Assembly: GCA_963675745.2 (NCBI GenBank) | Contig: CAXXWX010000026.1 | Location: 480,001 to 544,000, forward strand | Reading direction: 5' to 3' | Length of the DNA: 64,000 nt | DNA from: Phycisphaerae bacterium | Lineage (GTDB): Bacteria > Planctomycetota > Phycisphaerae > UBA1845 > Fen-1342 | In this document: positions 21,229 to 27,666 of the stretch, in pieces | How positions within the stretch are numbered: position 1 is the first letter of the stretch | How the letters are laid out: each line of letters opens with the position of its first letter | Notes under the pieces: model-generated | The model's input: the letters and a program-made list of their open reading frames with translations, nothing else | Database searches by the model: none | What the model was told of the DNA's origin: nothing | Translations under genes and position numbers: made by a program

Positions 21229-21609
21229 ATGCACTTCGAGCTTGATCCCAAGAGCGGCGTGCCGTTCTACCGGCAGATCATTGATCAAATCCAGTTCGCC
21301 ATTGCCGACGGGCGTATCGGCAGTGGTGATCGGTTGCCGACCGTCCGGCAACTCGCCGTCGAGCTCAAAATAAACCCGAACACGGTCGCGCGGGCGTATC
21401 AGGAGCTCGAAATCAAGGGCATTGTCAACACGCAGATGGGCAGTGGCACGTTCATCGGCAACGGAAAAGTCGAAATCTCGGAGATCGAGCGCAAACGCAT
21501 GCTCGACCAGATCTGCACGGAACTACTGTCACGCGCGTCCACCTACGGCTTCACGCTGGCCGAGGTGATTGCCGCTCTGCGCGAACGCGAGGAAGAACGG
21601 CCGGGATGA
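21229..21609 (+). CDS. GntR family transcriptional regulator, YtrA subfamily
   Basis: PFYRQI...GDRLPTVRQLAVELKINPNTVARAYQELE; short helical C-terminus. Confidence 0.93.
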   Translation: MHFELDPKSGVPFYRQIIDQIQFAIADGRIGSGDRLPTVRQLAVELKINPNTVARAYQELEIKGIVNTQMGSGTFIGNGKVEISEIERKRMLDQICTELLSRASTYGFTLAEVIAALREREEERPG

Positions 21610-22124
21610 TCAACGCGTTCGGACATTACGACACGACACGCGGCTTGCCGCATATCCAGCCGCTCCGCTCGCGGTTGCGGCGAATGCGGCGACCAGTCCT
21701 CCAGGCGCTGCTCGTGGCGGCCGCGGGCGCAATTGTCTGGCTGAGCCGCTCCACGAATGGCACCGGGGCGGGAGAAGGTGTGCTGTCGTCGGCCGGCACA
21801 TGGCTGAGTAAACCGCAGCCTCTGTTGCCAAGGGCCATCTGTGACGGCCGCGACGAGCACCCGTCGACCACCGAAGCGAGCAGTCGCTGCAAACTGACCA
21901 TCCGCCTGCCGATGTCGGACGGTCGCACGTTTGCGGCGGTTGAGTGCAACTATGAACGGGTTTTACGAATGCCGCCGTCGGCAACCACCGACGCACCGGA
22001 ACGGGCCACCGCGAGCCACCCACGATGGGTGTGGCTGGTGTGCGCGCTCGTGCCAATTCTCCTGGCCTGCGTGCTGGTACCGGAGCCAGAGCAGCCCATC
22101 AACTCGAGGAGGCCCAAACCGTGA
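21606..22124 (+). CDS. Hypothetical membrane protein (two TM segments)
   Basis: ATGA overlap with gntR and GTGA overlap with the next gene; two hydrophobic helices. Confidence 0.6.
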   Translation: MINAFGHYDTTRGLPHIQPLRSRLRRMRRPVLQALLVAAAGAIVWLSRSTNGTGAGEGVLSSAGTWLSKPQPLLPRAICDGRDEHPSTTEASSRCKLTIRLPMSDGRTFAAVECNYERVLRMPPSATTDAPERATASHPRWVWLVCALVPILLACVLVPEPEQPINSRRPKP

Positions 22125-23269
22125 TTGAGAACACACAGAACATCTTGGGTCGTTCGCTGGAGAAATTCGCGATCAGCTCACGCGCGGATTACCGCTTCGC
22201 ACCGTTTAACGCGCTCTTGATGCTGGCAGTCATGCTGGCCGGCCTGGTGACGCACGTTATCGTGTATGAGTTCGAAGTGGCCGCGGTCATCTACGCCATC
22301 GGCGCCGCCCTCGTGCTGCTGGGGACGTTCAGAGTACACCAGATCTGGGAGAGCGTGGTGATTGGCGGCGCCATGGTGGCGCTGGCCGGTTACCTGCTGT
22401 TCGACCACCTCGGCATACCGCCCCGTGTGCTGGTCGGGTCCACCGCTCTGGCCACCATCATCGCACCTAGTATTCAAATCGCGTACCAGTGGGAGCGCGG
22501 CGTGCTCTTGCGTTTCGGGAAATTCAAGGGCATCCGGGGAGCCGGGATCTTCGCGGTCGTGCCCGTGGTCGACAAGGTGGCTCAGTTCGTCGATCAGCGC
22601 ATCCGCGTGACCGACTTCCGCGCGGAGACCACACTCACCAAGGACACGGTGCCGGTGAACGTGGACGCGATCGCCTTCTGGATGGTCTGGGACGCGGAAA
22701 AAGCCGTGCTGGAAGTCGAGGACTTCACCACGGCGGTCACGCTGTCAGCCCAGACCGCTCTGCGGGACGCAATCGGCCGAAGCGAGCTGGCGGAACTGCT
22801 GTCGCACCGGGATCGTCTGGGCAAGGAGATCCAGGAAGTGCTGGACGCCAAGACGAACCCCTGGGGCATCACGGCCCAGTCCGTCGAGATCCGCGACATC
22901 ATCATTCCCAAGGCGCTCGAAGACGCCATGAGCAAACAGGCGCAGTCCGAGCGCGAGCGCCAATCGCGCATCATCCTCGGTACGGCGGAGACGGAGATTG
23001 CCGAGAAGTTCGCCAAGGCGTCGGAAGCCTACCGCGATAACCCCGTCGCCCTGCACTTGCGTGCGATGAACATGGTTTACGAAGGCCTCAAGAAGAAAGG
23101 CTCGATGGTCATCGTGCCGTCCACGGCCGTCGAGACGATGGGCCTCGGTGCGCTGGGCGGCCTGACAGCGTTGGGGCAACCACGCGCCGACATGTCCGCG
23201 GAGGCCGCACTGAGTGAGCCCGACCGACCGGAGGCCGGTCCCACAGACACTTCGGCCACGCAGCCTTAG
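22121..23269 (+). CDS. SPFH/stomatin (slipin) family protein with extra N-terminal TM helices
   Basis: QWERGVLLRFGK, TKDTVPVNVDA, AQTALRDAIG, WGI...VEIRDI, AMSKQAQSERER; GTG start after GAGGAGG. Confidence 0.9.
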   Translation: MIENTQNILGRSLEKFAISSRADYRFAPFNALLMLAVMLAGLVTHVIVYEFEVAAVIYAIGAALVLLGTFRVHQIWESVVIGGAMVALAGYLLFDHLGIPPRVLVGSTALATIIAPSIQIAYQWERGVLLRFGKFKGIRGAGIFAVVPVVDKVAQFVDQRIRVTDFRAETTLTKDTVPVNVDAIAFWMVWDAEKAVLEVEDFTTAVTLSAQTALRDAIGRSELAELLSHRDRLGKEIQEVLDAKTNPWGITAQSVEIRDIIIPKALEDAMSKQAQSERERQSRIILGTAETEIAEKFAKASEAYRDNPVALHLRAMNMVYEGLKKKGSMVIVPSTAVETMGLGALGGLTALGQPRADMSAEAALSEPDRPEAGPTDTSATQP

Positions 23270-23304
23270 ACGCGCCCCCAAGACTGCGGCACCGGCTTTC
23301 AACT

Positions 23305-23355
23305 GTGGCACTGGTTTTCAACCAGTGCGTATCACCGGTTGAAAACCGGTGCCAC
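23305..23355. repeat. REP-like 23-bp inverted repeat pair, possible bidirectional terminator
   Basis: GTGGCACTGGTTTTCAACCAGTG / CACCGGTTGAAAACCGGTGCCAC between convergent genes. Confidence 0.75.
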
Positions 23356-23374
23356 ATGGGTTTTGGGATAGCTT

Positions 23375-24184
23375 CTACTGTGTGATGCGGTGCAGGTGCG
23401 CGACGCTGTCGATGCGGCTGAGTAATTCGCGGTCGGCAATCGGCCGCTCAGACGCCGCCGGAACGAACAACGTGAACCCGGCGTGCAGCACGTGGGCGTA
23501 GTCGCAAATGTCGCGCAGCGCGAAACGATGCACGGTCGATGTCATCAGCGGGTGCGGCGTCGAGTAAACCGCCGAGACGACGTGCTCGGGCGGGTAATAG
23601 CGCAGCAGGTGTGTCCGCAGGCGCTCGAGGCGAACCGGTTTCGAGACGCGTGTCGTGTGCAGACACGTTTCCACGGTGCCAATCTGCCAGATGAGGGCCG
23701 GAACGTCGGGTTGCAACGGCCGACGCCGCAAGAGCAGGTCCGTGGCCTCGTACATCTGTAGCCCCGTGACACACGGATCGATCATCAACTCCGCGAACAA
23801 GCTGTCCATCGCCGAGATGCCCGGTAACACGCGAACCGTAAGATTCAGCAGCCCGGCCATGTCGCGGATCAGGAAGGGTGCGTAAACGCCGACGATCGGG
23901 TGCCCGTGCATCGCAAATGTGACCGGCGGGTGATCCAGGGCTGCGTCAATGACACGCGCGGCCATGTGGTGATAGGCGCCCAGCCGGTGCTCGCCGTCCC
24001 GATAGCTCGTCTCGAAGAGCCCCGTAACGCGCGGGCATAGGGTCTCCAGGAACGGACGCGTCGCCACGCCCGTATCCACGTAGAGCACTTCATTTGAACG
24101 GCGGATGGCCCGCTCGGTCTGGCGTGTGATCTGGTCGACGTTCAGGACGCCGAGCCCGACGATGTAGATATCAACCACGGTCAT
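23375..24184 (-). CDS. Borosin-type SAM-dependent peptide alpha-N-methyltransferase (tetrapyrrole methylase fold)
   Basis: IVGLG..QIT, YxDGxxRxxxY (YRDGEHRLGAY), xGHP, LPGISAMDSLFAELMIDP, YEATDLL, WQIG, TLFVP motifs as in OphMA/SonM. Confidence 0.85.
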   Translation of the reverse strand: MTVVDIYIVGLGVLNVDQITRQTERAIRRSNEVLYVDTGVATRPFLETLCPRVTGLFETSYRDGEHRLGAYHHMAARVIDAALDHPPVTFAMHGHPIVGVYAPFLIRDMAGLLNLTVRVLPGISAMDSLFAELMIDPCVTGLQMYEATDLLLRRRPLQPDVPALIWQIGTVETCLHTTRVSKPVRLERLRTHLLRYYPPEHVVSAVYSTPHPLMTSTVHRFALRDICDYAHVLHAGFTLFVPAASERPIADRELLSRIDSVAHLHRITQ

Positions 24185-24845
24185 CCCCCTCTTGCAGGGC
24201 GTGGATCAACCCGAGCAACTTCTCGTACCGCCCACCGGCATCGCTGGCACGGACGGCCCGCGCGGCTGCCTTCGCCGCCGCCGAATCGACATGATGATTC
24301 CACGGTGGATTCGCCGCAGCCGGCGGCTTCGGCTTGTCCGAAACGGCGTCGAGCGGCTCGATCGCGGCGGAATACGCCACCGTCAGCCCCTCCTCCCCTG
24401 AGGCGACGACCGTGGGCGTGAAGCGGACAAGCCACTCGATCTCCGGCGGTGCCCCGCTGCTCGGCTGGTCAGCGCGCGCATCGCGATCTGCGGGCCATGT
24501 GTGCAGAGAAGCCGCGTACGCGACATTTGCGCCGGCCCCCGGCGTCTGGGCCACCTGCGGAGCCAGTCGCAGCAGCAGCTTGACTTCGGGCAACTCTGGC
24601 GACGGCGCAGCATCCGCCTCCTGAGATTCGCGCTGTGGCGAGTCTTCCGCCGCCGCGTGACCATGCCCCACCGCGCCCCCCAGCAGGCCCAGCAGACGCT
24701 CGTCACGGCGGATCAGGATGTCCCGCTCTTGCTCGCTGAGGTCATAGCCTTCGAACGCCCGCTCCGGATCGGTCAGCGCCAACTCACAAAACGCATCGTC
24801 CAGCGCCGTCCGAACCAGAAAGTCAGCCACCGACTTGCCCGCCAT
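24171..24845 (-). CDS. Putative split-borosin precursor/partner with N-terminal BBD (LigA-like) helical domain and two internal repeats
   Basis: VADFLVRTALDDAF...DPERAFEGYDLSEQERDIL resembles the borosin-binding domain; overlaps the methyltransferase start; ATG at 24845 chosen. Confidence 0.72.
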   Translation of the reverse strand: MAGKSVADFLVRTALDDAFCELALTDPERAFEGYDLSEQERDILIRRDERLLGLLGGAVGHGHAAAEDSPQRESQEADAAPSPELPEVKLLLRLAPQVAQTPGAGANVAYAASLHTWPADRDARADQPSSGAPPEIEWLVRFTPTVVASGEEGLTVAYSAAIEPLDAVSDKPKPPAAANPPWNHHVDSAAAKAAARAVRASDAGGRYEKLLGLIHALQEGDDRG

Positions 24846-25089
24846 CTGTATTGCCCTCACACGTAAGCGTGCGCTGTGCGTCTGACATTGTCGGATGATC
24901 ACCGCACTATAACGGCACACCCGGCCGCGGGAAGTCTCGGACCGGTGGAGCACCAACTGGCAAGGGAAGAGCTGGTTGGCGTCAGAAAGGCAGGTGAACA
25001 GAACGCACGCAGCGGCAACGCCGCCACACGTCATCACCATCGCGTACGAGGGCATTGGTGCGGCCGGATACCAACACGGCGGCCCGGCA

Positions 25090-25340
25090 AACCCCGCCCC
25101 GGAGGGGCTTGGGCAAATAGCCACGGGTGGAGCGCAGCGTAACCCGTGGATAGTAACGATCCCCAATGAACCTCCGCCCTGAAAGGGCGGCGGAGGGACA
25201 GCCGATTGGAGTACCGCCGGGTTCCTCGGCAACTCCGTTCCACCGCCCTTCCAGGGCGGGATGCGCGACAAGAACACACCCGGTCCACGGGTTGCGCTGC
25301 GCTCCACCCGTGGTTACACGCCCACGCCCCATTGGGGCGA
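25090..25340. repeat. Composite palindromic repeat element (REP/MITE-like)
   Basis: 30-bp inverted repeats 25121-25150 and 25284-25313 (one mismatch) enclosing CCGCCCTGAAAGGGCGG and CCGCCCTTCCAGGGCGG hairpins. Confidence 0.8.
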
Positions 25341-25546
25341 CGGCGCGGCTGCGACTGGTCGGGACGCTGGTCATGACCGTCGGATCGGCGTTGATCATCT
25401 TTGCCCGGGCCGCGACCGGTGCGGGCTAGGCAACGGCGTCACGGTGGGCGCTCCGCCGAATCACGTACGACGACACGGACGCCGCGCGGGCGATTACTCG
25501 CTAGAATTGACCAACGGCCCACAATAGACCGCCACACGGAGCAGCC

Positions 25547-26704
25547 ATGCCCCCTCGCAAAAAGACTCGCCAGGTTCTGGTCGGAAATGTCAGGCTCGGC
25601 GGCGATGCGCCGATCGTGCTTCAATCCATGACCAGCGGCCACACGCACGCGATCGATGCCTGCATCGCCGAGGTGCAGAAACTCGCCGCCGCCGGCGCCG
25701 ATCTGGTTCGCGTCGCCGTCCCCGACAAGAAGGACACAGAGGCCCTGCGGCAGATAATCGCCGCCAGCCCGGTGCCGATCGTCGCCGACGTACACTTTCA
25801 TTTTCAGCGCGCCCTCGAAGCGATCGAAGCGGGCGCTCACAAAATCCGCCTGAACCCCGGCAACATTCAGGACCGCGCCAAGGTCGAGCAGGTCATCGCC
25901 GCCTGCAAGGAACGCGGCATCCCGATCCGCATCGGCGTTAACGAAGGTGGTATCGTCGAGCGGCGCGACAAAGACCTGCGCGCGGCGGAGCAGCAGATGC
26001 TGCGCGGCGACCATCACGCCGGCTTGATCAAACTGATGCTCGACAAGCTGGCGGAGTATCTGCGGATTTTCGACGACAACGACTTTCACGACCTGGTGAT
26101 CAGCGCCAAGGGCATTGATCCGCGGCTCGTGATCGATGTCTACACCGCGATCAGCGAGCGCTGGGACTACCCCCTGCACCTGGGCGTAACGCACGCCGGC
26201 ACACCCGACACGGGGCGTATCCGTACGATCGCGGCGTTGGGGACGCTGCTGGCCAACGGCATCGGCGACACGATCCGGATCAGCTACGCCGCCGACCCGG
26301 TGTACGAGGTTGAGGACGGCAAGGAGTTACTGTGCACGCTCGGGCTGCGGGCACGAACGACGCCGGAGCTGATCGCCTGCCCGTCGTGCGGACGCATCGA
26401 GGTGGACTTGTTCAAGCTGGTCGAGGACGTCAAGCGCACGATCCTGACCGAGATCGGGCTGCCGATGAAGATCGCGGTGATGGGATGTGTCGTCAACGGC
26501 CCCGGCGAATGCGAAGGCGCCGACGTGGCGATCTTCGCCGGCAAGGGACGCGGGATCATCTATGTCCAGGGCCAACAGAAGGCGACCGTGACCGAAGACA
26601 AGATGCTCGAGGCGCTGCTGCACGAGTGTCGGGAGTTCGCGCGCCGAGTCGAGCGCGGCGAAGCGCGGCTCATCAACGCCCCAATGGACATCACGGCCCC
26701 GTAG
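25547..26704 (+). CDS. ispG: (E)-4-hydroxy-3-methylbut-2-enyl-diphosphate synthase
   Basis: QSMT, ADVHF, RLNPGNI, IRIGVN, PLHLGVT, GIGDTIRIS, CPSCGR, MGCVVNGPGE. Confidence 0.97.
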   Translation: MPPRKKTRQVLVGNVRLGGDAPIVLQSMTSGHTHAIDACIAEVQKLAAAGADLVRVAVPDKKDTEALRQIIAASPVPIVADVHFHFQRALEAIEAGAHKIRLNPGNIQDRAKVEQVIAACKERGIPIRIGVNEGGIVERRDKDLRAAEQQMLRGDHHAGLIKLMLDKLAEYLRIFDDNDFHDLVISAKGIDPRLVIDVYTAISERWDYPLHLGVTHAGTPDTGRIRTIAALGTLLANGIGDTIRISYAADPVYEVEDGKELLCTLGLRARTTPELIACPSCGRIEVDLFKLVEDVKRTILTEIGLPMKIAVMGCVVNGPGECEGADVAIFAGKGRGIIYVQGQQKATVTEDKMLEALLHECREFARRVERGEARLINAPMDITAP

Positions 26705-26836
26705 CGGCCGACGTCCCCGTCGGCCGTCCAAACACCGAAGGACGGTTCCACACATGTAGCGGCCTGCGCCCCGCAGGCCGTCGATGCGCGAAGAGGTCTG
26801 CGATATCGCCACGGCCTGCGAGGCGCAGGCCGCTAC
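26701..26836. repeat. GTAG-headed REP-like palindromes (two families)
   Basis: GTAGCGGCCGACGTCCCCGTCGGCCGTC (identical copy at 34043) and inverted pair GTAGCGGCCTGCG.../...CGCAGGCCGCTAC at 26756-26836. Confidence 0.75.
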
Positions 26837-26894
26837 GGAGCATTACATCGGACCATTGAGTATTGCGCGGAACGTTGGCTCAACGGGCGGGCAA

Positions 26895-26965
26895 CTGGGG
26901 ATAGAGGATTCGAACCTCTACTAACTGATCCAGAGTCAGTCGTGCTACCATTACACCAATCCCCA
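26895..26965 (-). tRNA. tRNA-Gln(CTG), intact copy, CCA not encoded
   Basis: TGGGGATTGGTGTAATGGTAGCACGACTGACTCTGGATCAGTTAGTAGAGGTTCGAATCCTCTATCCCCAG folds as a cloverleaf. Confidence 0.95.
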
Positions 26966-26986
26966 CGACCAGAACAGTTTACGGCC

Positions 26987-27054
26987 GGGATAGAGGATTC
27001 GAACCTCTACTAACTGATCCAGAGTCAGTCGTGCTACCATTACACCAATCCCCA
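26987..27054 (-). pseudogene. Second tRNA-Gln(CTG) copy with defective 3' acceptor strand (89-bp tandem duplication)
   Basis: Identical body but ends ATCCCGG instead of ATCCCCAG. Confidence 0.8.
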
Positions 27055-27064
27055 CGACGAGAAC

Positions 27065-27093
27065 AGTTTACGGCCTGAACGGCCGGCGATCAA
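27065..27093 (-). promoter_or_regulatory. Sigma70 promoter of tRNA-Gln
   Basis: TTGATC-N17-TAAACT about 10 bp upstream of the tRNA 5' end. Confidence 0.65.
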
Positions 27094-27162
27094 CACCGTG
27101 TGCGCTGCTCTTGAGCGGGGCGGAAATCGGACTGGTGCCGGCGCCGCCGCTGATCGGCGCGC

Positions 27163-27666
27163 TCACAGCCAGCCGGCGATCGGCTGGACATGGCGGGCAA
27201 ACTCGCGCGTGGGCATGTTCACCGTGCCCCACTTGGGCGAGCGCATGCGTGCGTGAAGCTGATAATCGTCCAGCGGCACACCGGCAAACACGTAGCGCTC
27301 CTCCCGGAAGACATGGACGATGTCGGGTGGCGGCTCAGCTTCGACTTGCAGCCAGTAGGCGAAAACGAGCAGCGCCCGGAAACCGTCGCCGAACACACCC
27401 TGCCACTGGGCCAATCCGTCCAGATCATCCTGCGTCACCCAGTTTTCCCAGGCGGGCTTGCAGGTGCGCTTGCGGGCGGCCCAGCGCCGCCCTTTCACGT
27501 CGACCAGCCAGTTGGTGTTGCTCTGTGAGTAAACGATGAAGTCGAAGCTCTTGAGTTTGGCGTCGCGAAAGGCGGCCCGCTTGGCCTCGTCCACGGCGAC
27601 GTAGGGAACCTGTCGAGCGCGGAGATAGTCCTCGAAAGCGGCCTCGTAATGAACGTGCGATTTCAC
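27163..27666 (-). CDS. HYExAFE family protein (PD-(D/E)xK nuclease-like)
   Basis: HYEAAFEDYLR, SFDFIVY, LVDVKGR motifs. Confidence 0.85.
   Translation of the reverse strand: MKSHVHYEAAFEDYLRARQVPYVAVDEAKRAAFRDAKLKSFDFIVYSQSNTNWLVDVKGRRWAARKRTCKPAWENWVTQDDLDGLAQWQGVFGDGFRALLVFAYWLQVEAEPPPDIVHVFREERYVFAGVPLDDYQLHARMRSPKWGTVNMPTREFARHVQPIAGWL

What the first reader, a model, noticed from the sequence alone, without database searches (positions are those of the whole stretch)
23375..24845. Two-gene split-borosin-like peptide backbone N-methylation system in a probable planctomycete
Seen: two overlapping minus-strand genes bounded on both sides by palindromic repeats. The 269-aa protein has the motif order of borosin alpha-N-methyltransferases (YxDGxxRxxxY, xGHP, PGISAxDxLFAxLxIDP, YEAxD, WQIG, TxFVP). 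The upstream 224-aa protein starts with a helical segment like the borosin-binding domain (DFL...D.....DPE.....Y.LSE.E...L). Known: OphMA and SonM/SonA methylate backbone amides of a core peptide tethered through this domain. Inferred: this is a RiPP-like or protein-modification system that standard annotation would call 'tetrapyrrole methylase + hypothetical'. No protease or transporter is adjacent, so the product may be a methylated protein rather than a released peptide.
Basis: partly seen in the sequence, partly recalled or inferred. Interest (0 to 1): 0.85.

Follow-up and report, generated by a model that had tools for sequence, protein, structure and literature searches.

The report
Borosin methylase with capped internal substrate
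Two overlapping genes encode a distant relative of the enzymes that methylate peptide backbone nitrogens and a partner protein carrying that family's docking domain, and the partner likely gets methylated in its middle, which is closed off by a conserved end cap missing from the well-studied systems.

Summary
Observation confirmed. The 269-aa protein is a borosin-type N-methyltransferase: model TM 0.86-0.89 to OphMA/SonM; Arg67, Tyr71, Glu146 and Trp166 match borosins, and YabN lacks the Arg, Glu and Trp. The partner's first ~55 residues match SonA's docking domain.

In relatives both ends are kept (118 of 150 listed proteins) and the middle runs 26-176 aa, from core-like Thr/Val/Ile strands to polyproline. 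The cap was not found at canonical borosin loci (0 of 17) and is lost in 5 of 9 natural fusions to the enzyme. These enzymes branch apart from SonM-like ones.

The flanking palindromes are unrelated genome-wide repeats. No protease or transporter recurs nearby. Methylation is untested, two active-site Tyr are replaced, and no complex prediction was available. The scan met this family before in Acidobacteria (e1-3991803). Verdict: new, untested variant of type IV split borosins.

The parts
23375..24184 (-). Borosin-type SAM-dependent alpha-N-methyltransferase (269 aa; likely true start GTG 24178, 267 aa). Keeps Y61, R67, Y71, GHP 94-96, E146, W166, Q167; has F57 and H93 where OphMA has Y63 and Y98.
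24171..24845 (-). Partner / putative precursor, 224 aa, overlapping the enzyme start
24672..24833 (-). Partner residues 5-58: five-helix LigA-like borosin binding domain (BBD)
24489..24596 (-). Partner residues 84-119: beta-hairpin repeat 1 (predicted strands 88-99, 107-116); candidate methylation region
24351..24449 (-). Partner residues 133-165: beta-hairpin repeat 2 (predicted strands 136-150, 153-164); homologous to repeat 1
   Evidence: hhalign 97.5%, E 8e-12
24186..24308 (-). Partner residues 180-220: conserved C-terminal helical hairpin ('cap'; predicted helices 189-200, 206-219; R206 97%, L213 95% conserved in 118 relatives)

Best explanation
This is a self-contained two-gene split-borosin-type cassette in which the partner likely docks on the methyltransferase through its five-helix domain and is likely N-methylated on backbone amides in its internal variable region, with the C-terminal helical cap predicted to act as a second anchor that holds this region as a loop. 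Shown: the two overlapping genes, the borosin fold and catalytic Arg/Tyr, the BBD, strict linkage, the conserved-ends/variable-middle layout, and loss of the cap in some fusions. Inferred from SonM/SonA and OphMA: an enzyme dimer, BBD binding, SAM-dependent N-to-C methylation of an extended hydrophobic strand. Inferred here only: the targets are the hydrophobic strands (first candidate residues 87-95, after a ~27-residue flexible linker); the cap binds the enzyme; and the product stays a modified protein or is cut by host proteases.
For: Enzyme: all 25 PDB sequence hits are borosins. The family profile scores 120-154 bits on borosins versus 29 on the only other hit. Model pLDDT 94, TM 0.82-0.89, every listed row a borosin. 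R67 is in 23/23 clade, 15/15 canonical, 0/14 YabN; E146 in 23/23, 14/15, 0/14; W166 in 20/23, 14/15, 0/14. The tree joins it with canonical borosins at 98/90. Partner: SonA is the top of 48,161 chains (Z 5.7, rmsd 2.4, 51 of 52 residues), and the profile hits SonA at E 0.01-0.03. Linkage: a BBD lies upstream in 58 of 58 metagenome loci with enough DNA and 32 of 32 genome loci. The middle is hypervariable (26-176 aa); short members carry core-like runs such as poly-Thr (L013), VVVVIVVAIVAF (P0322) and TITITG (P0329), like the tails of canonical partners seen. Nine proteins fuse the partner to the enzyme N-terminus, the published type 0 layout in which methylation falls between BBD and enzyme. 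Five of the nine lack the cap, in at least two separate branches.
Against: No member of this lineage is shown to methylate anything in what I read. F57 and H93 replace tyrosines whose loss slows SonM (Y58F 15-fold, Y93F 2-fold) and reduces or abolishes OphMA activity (Y63F reduced, Y98F/A undetected), though relatives keep Tyr at these sites in 34 and 12 of 95. Identity to solved borosins is only 23-26%, and the AU test did not reject a grouping with YabN (p 0.096). AlphaFold folds the middle into paired strands (block pLDDT 64-85), and the strands are 56-81% conserved versus 21-28% for linkers, which fits a folded domain as well as a core. The BBD Z-score of 5.7 is below the level the tool calls distinctive for helical folds. 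Four of nine fusions keep the cap, and a deletion that creates a fusion could remove the cap without any functional meaning.
Confidence: 0.55

Rival explanations
1. The enzyme is a true backbone methylase, but the partner is mainly an adaptor or effector subunit: the beta-region is a stable domain and the methylated site is a linker, the cap, or a third protein recruited by the beta-domain.
For: Strands are conserved and predicted as a sheet. No recurring protease or exporter in 112 loci. BBD-like domains also occur on non-substrate subunits (TglI, LigA) and BBD-GNAT fusions. In SamA1 the methyl mark serves as a signal and is not in the released peptide.
Against: The middle exists with zero, one or two hairpins or as poly-Thr/poly-Pro in the same lineage, which is unlike a required folded domain. 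No third gene travels with the pair. No fold match above Z 4 for residues 82-167.
Confidence: 0.27
2. An early-branching relative with different chemistry on the same partner (side-chain or terminal methylation), or with weak or no activity.
For: Long branch (1.3 changes per column) to the canonical group; AU p 0.096; F57/H93 substitutions; YabN model score 60 bits.
Against: The Arg and Tyr needed for amide activation are invariant in 95 of 95 and the Arg is absent from YabN. The full borosin fold is kept.
Confidence: 0.15
3. An ordinary tetrapyrrole (corrin/siroheme) or MazG-associated methylase next to an unrelated hypothetical gene.
For: Pfam TP_methylase over cut-off; database names such as 'precorrin methylase'.
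Against: NCBIfam Cob/Cbi/YabN scores are far below cut-offs. Tetrapyrrole methylases score under 30 bits on the family profile. No MazG domain. Strict linkage to a BBD protein.
Confidence: 0.03

Closest known systems
Type IV split borosin SonM/SonA, Shewanella oneidensis (PDB 7LTC, 9CGW; PMC8429565, passages read)
   Same: Separate ~265-aa enzyme and BBD-led partner; same fold (TM 0.86); Arg67 and Tyr71 kept; BBD superposes over 51 of 52 residues.
   Different: 25% identity. The partner is 224 aa rather than ~70, the candidate core is internal and duplicated, and a C-terminal cap follows. SonM Y58/Y93 correspond to F57/H93 (mapping through OphMA numbering).
Type 0 fused borosins FpeAM/SkoAM (bioRxiv 10.1101/2024.01.09.574750, parts 1-3 of 4 read)
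   Same: BBD, then internal core, then enzyme: the layout of nine fused relatives found here.
   Different: The window's system is split. I could not obtain the type 0 sequences, so whether they share this lineage or the cap is untested.
Type VIII split borosin PmoA/M and SamA1 (bioRxiv 10.1101/2021.12.24.474128, whole text read)
   Same: Methylated region lies inside the precursor with sequence after it.
   Different: Type VIII carries the BBD on a large enzyme and uses acidic DV/DI repeats in ~600 aa. SamA1 has an acidic tail and a dedicated pepsin. Neither is described with a helical cap.
Divergent, untested borosin-like groups noted by Imani et al. (20-member Streptomycetales/Halobacteriales cluster, 28.5% to OphMA) and Lee et al. 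(type IV groups between outgroups and characterised borosins)
   Same: Same enzyme size, low identity to OphMA, same phyla among relatives. This lineage probably overlaps those groups.
   Different: The main texts describe them as type IV-like with no further conserved domains and do not describe the partners. Their supplementary tables were not available, so overlap is not verified.
OphMA (PDB 5N0P; PMC6108569, passages read)
   Same: Best fold match (TM 0.88); Y66, R72, Y76, Q172 equivalents kept.
   Different: Fungal, fused enzyme-clasp-core with a C-terminal core and a macrocyclase.

Membership tests
Borosin alpha-N-methyltransferases | Borosin NMT fold, closer to OphMA/SonM than to other TP methylases | tested here: met
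Borosin alpha-N-methyltransferases | Catalytic Arg and Tyr (OphMA R72/Y76, SonM R67/Y71) | tested here: met
   R67, Y71 in 95 of 95; Arg absent in 14 of 14 YabN
Borosin alpha-N-methyltransferases | YGHP motif Tyr (OphMA Y98) and OphMA Y63 | tested here: not met
   H93 and F57; Tyr kept in 12 and 34 of 95 relatives; SonM Y93F and Y58F remain active but slower
Borosin alpha-N-methyltransferases | Monophyly with characterised borosins to the exclusion of YabN-N | tested here: inconclusive
   Tree support 98/90 but AU test p 0.096; characterised enzymes were represented by relatives only (L062, E 2e-74 to SonM)
Borosin alpha-N-methyltransferases | Passes the published BorosinMT / YGHP_v3 / DCLFAD_v3 models or RODEO score | not testable with these tools
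   models lie in supplements that were not held
Type IV split borosins | Discrete enzyme without BBD plus adjacent BBD-fused precursor | tested here: met
Type IV split borosins | Short precursor ending in a C-terminal core | tested here: not met
   224 aa ending in a conserved helical cap
Type IV split borosins | Precursor binds the enzyme through the BBD | not tested
Borosin RiPPs | SAM-dependent backbone alpha-N-methylation of the precursor | not testable with these tools
   needs expression and MS/MS
Borosin RiPPs | Proteolytic release of a peptide product | tested here: inconclusive
   no recurring protease; son cluster also encodes none
YabN / tetrapyrrole methylases | Score over curated cut-off; MazG domain | tested here: not met
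   60 versus 525 bits; Cob/Cbi models 12-20 bits

The most novel reading that the evidence does not exclude
An undescribed structural type of borosin, near the root of the family, in which the precursor is clamped to the enzyme at both ends (BBD and cap) and presents an exchangeable internal loop. In this planctomycete the loop is a duplicated beta-hairpin, so the product would be a backbone-N-methylated beta-sheet protein rather than a released peptide, with methylation switching its folding or assembly.
Probability: 0.3. Interest if true: 0.75.

Novelty: new variant of a known kind. Interest (0 to 1): 0.5.

Why it matters
Characterised borosin enzymes mostly act on free C-terminal tails. An enzyme that methylates an internal segment of 26-176 residues and very varied sequence between two fixed handles would be a useful tool for placing backbone N-methyls inside proteins. 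It would also test the proposal that borosins began as split BBD-precursor systems. A two-gene system with no other recurring gene is a clean test of what bacterial borosins are for. Cultured carriers exist (Streptacidiphilus neutrinimicus, Hamadaea tsunoensis, Streptomyces spp.).

Tried and rejected
Coupling analysis of BBD+cap (269 rows, effective 130): the top couplings were within domains and BBD-cap pairs formed no coherent patch, so it is inconclusive. Foldseek of the whole partner model gave no match at E<=0.001. VIA-align gave only Z<4 for the beta-region and cap. ESM Atlas gave two unnamed clusters at 0.78-0.79 for the whole partner and nothing for residues 80-224. A mobile-element reading of the palindromes was rejected, and GC is like the genome's (0.64/0.68 versus 0.63). 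Viral contigs: 95 pattern matches, none confirmed. Rfam found only two tRNAs in 23200-27200. No convincing promoter or terminator for the pair. Neighbour clustering of 681 ORFs from 112 loci found no family shared across lineages and none of the window's flanking genes recurring in place. Paper searches for borosin with Planctomycet, Acidobacteri, follower, 2025+ and polyproline terms (listings only) showed no paper on this architecture. The journal versions and supplements of the two genome-mining papers were not held and may list these genes.

Full report
Observation. Two minus-strand ORFs lie at 23375-24184 (269 aa) and 24171-24845 (224 aa). Overlap is the rule: 75 of 92 intact pairs overlap by about 4 or 8 nt. 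The enzyme probably starts at GTG 24178. The pair sits between a converging GntR/orphan/SPFH unit and a diverging ispG. The two flanking palindromes are different sequences with 32 and 18 copies across the genome and are not part of the system. The genome holds one copy of each gene. The closest relatives (75-83% identity) come from records titled Phycisphaerae or Planctomycetota, so a planctomycete host is a sound inference.

The enzyme. All 25 PDB sequences matched are borosin methyltransferases. A 95-row family profile scores 120-154 bits on them and 29 bits on the single other hit. The model (pLDDT 94) matches OphMA, dbOphMA, MroMA and SonM at TM 0.82-0.89 and 23-26% identity. By the alignment, Y61, R67 and Y71 correspond to OphMA Y66, R72 and Y76; R67 and Y71 are invariant in 95 of 95. 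Against 14 YabN N-terminal domains, the closest known outgroup, R67 is in 23 of 23 clade members, 15 of 15 canonical-type enzymes and 0 of 14 YabN; E146 and W166 behave alike. Against this: F57 and H93 replace OphMA Y63 and Y98. In SonM the matching mutants are 15-fold and 2-fold slower; in OphMA Y63F is reduced and Y98F/A gave no detectable methylation.

Its place. A 54-row tree (22 rows of the 74-row set dropped as redundant or long, two fusions added) joins all borosin-like rows at 98/90, apart from YabN and tetrapyrrole methylases. Eleven canonical rows, including a SonM relative, form a clade at 100/99 on a long stem. The capped lineage forms a group at 88/98, and its beta-hairpin members group at 100/99. 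The AU test did not reject a forced clade+YabN grouping (p 0.096), so the tree alone is not decisive. No characterised enzyme was itself in the tree. Imani et al. mention an untested 20-member divergent cluster with Streptomycetales and Halobacteriales, and Lee et al. mention type IV groups between the outgroups and characterised borosins. This lineage probably overlaps them; I could not see their tables.

The partner. The model (pLDDT 73.6, pTM 0.37, so domain placement is not resolved) has five helices at 6-64, four strands at 88-164 and two helices at 189-219. The best of 48,161 chains is SonA (Z 5.7, rmsd 2.4, 51 of 52 residues), followed by DesB, the MroMA clasp and LigA. The Z is modest, but a 21-row profile independently hits SonA at E 0.01-0.03, and weak Pfam/NCBIfam hits are to the same LigA-like group. 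Residues 84-119 and 133-165 are a duplication (hhalign 97.5%). Identity among 60 close relatives is 68% for the BBD, 56-81% for the strands, 70% for the cap and 21-28% for the linkers.

The family. A profile search found 1510 proteins at E<=0.001; of the 150 listed, 118 have BBD and cap, 25 BBD only (several look truncated or are fusions) and 7 cap only. The query held both domains, so this share is biased upward. The middle is 26-176 aa (median 108), and the cap lies within 17 residues of the end in 116 of 118. Middles include two hairpins, one hairpin, poly-Thr, short Val/Ile/Thr strands and polyproline. A BBD lies upstream of the enzyme in 32 of 32 genome loci (31 with cap; L030 is broken) and in 58 of 58 metagenome loci with at least 900 nt upstream (55 with cap, 3 fusions; 22 of 80 were too short). 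Three of the genome-locus caps were found only with a profile that contained them; an independent profile found 25 of 30. The cap was found at 0 of 17 canonical loci and 0 of 4 intermediate loci (1.5-3 kb flanks; my profile found the BBD partner at only 4 of the 17), where the visible partners are short and end in a free tail. Nine proteins fuse partner to enzyme; four keep the cap and five lack it, in at least two branches, and all nine retain Tyr71 and an Arg at or beside position 67.

Context. Pfam on 128 neighbouring ORFs from the genome loci and clustering of 681 ORFs from 112 loci show no recurring protease, transporter or regulator. A few actinobacterial short-core members carry 2OG-Fe(II) oxygenases or a sulfotransferase. 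The cassette is patchy: 3 of 61 related genomes including the host, and none of three in the same genus (68-97% complete). It was found at clade level in 2 of 401 phylum genomes and in 6 of 201 Streptomyces at E<1e-69. It was not found in viral contigs.

Mechanism. By analogy with SonM/SonA, the BBD docks on an enzyme dimer and an extended hydrophobic segment after a flexible linker is methylated N-to-C using SAM. Here the linker is about 27 residues and the first such segment is 87-95. Internal cores have precedent (type VIII, type 0, SamA1). Conserved ends around a freely varying middle point to the middle as substrate. Loss of the cap when the partner is covalently tied to the enzyme suggests, but does not show, that the cap is a second anchor. 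I give 0.55 to this reading, 0.27 to an adaptor partner with a folded beta-domain, 0.15 to other chemistry or weak activity, and 0.03 to a tetrapyrrole enzyme. No complex prediction was available, and coupling analysis was inconclusive.

Novelty. It works like a split borosin and meets the sequence and fold criteria of the enzyme family except two tyrosines. It fails the type IV criterion of a short precursor with a terminal core. Papers seen: both genome-mining preprints (Imani whole text; Lee parts 1-3 of 4), passages of PMC8429565, PMC6108569, PMC10549244, PMC11751858 and PMC12353581, and part 1 of PMC11395268. None of what I read describes a capped precursor; searches are named under Tried and rejected, and unseen supplements may list the genes. 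An earlier scan note (e1-3991803) reports the acidobacterial branch and says it is in a published table, which I could not check. Verdict: a real, untested, architecturally distinct variant of split borosins; interest 0.5.

Noticed in passing
L034:2734-5885 (Haloarcula sp. CBA1115 plasmid NZ_CP010533.1): Short BBD partner + related enzyme (35% identity) + prolyl oligopeptidase, with a divergent ABC transporter: an archaeal borosin-like cluster with a candidate maturation protease.
   Followed up: partly
L020:5276-7482; L015:1941-3299; L017:2233-3591; L029:5384-7617: Pro-rich partner with the enzyme fused to a 2OG-Fe(II) oxygenase (L020); a divergent 2OG oxygenase near the pair (L015, L017); a polyproline partner followed by an Stf0 sulfotransferase (L029). 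Suggests extra tailoring of the middle region.
   Followed up: no
L162:3347-4800, L165, L170; proteins P0259, P0263, P0276, P0285, P0292, P0299: Natural partner-enzyme fusions in the type 0 layout, with or without the cap.
   Followed up: yes
L048, L049, L050 (Streptomyces-group genomes): Intermediate lineage with ~75-aa partners ending in a conserved YFH(I/L)RE-x-G-x-Y-x-DD tail and SGHP in place of YGHP.
   Followed up: no
window 26895-27054: Two tandem near-identical tRNA-Gln(CTG) genes in an 89-nt direct repeat.
   Followed up: partly
window 23304-23356, 25095-25339, 26756-26836: Three unrelated palindromic repeat families dispersed at 32, 18 and 131 places in the genome; REP-like by my recall.
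   Followed up: partly
window 21229-23269 and 27163-27666: GntR regulator, orphan ORF and SPFH/band-7 membrane protein in one run; a HYExAFE-family protein next to the tRNAs.
   Followed up: no
L030:5748-6393 (Coleofasciculus MAG): Pair appears broken: BBD ORF ends early and only the enzyme's second half is present.
   Followed up: no
L186 (G1036:C75:4693-5364): A canonical-level borosin match inside a 1080-aa frame in another planctomycete.
   Followed up: no
G000 whole genome: Only this gene matched PF00590; other tetrapyrrole-methylase-family genes were not found, which may reflect incompleteness (91%) or search sensitivity.
   Followed up: no
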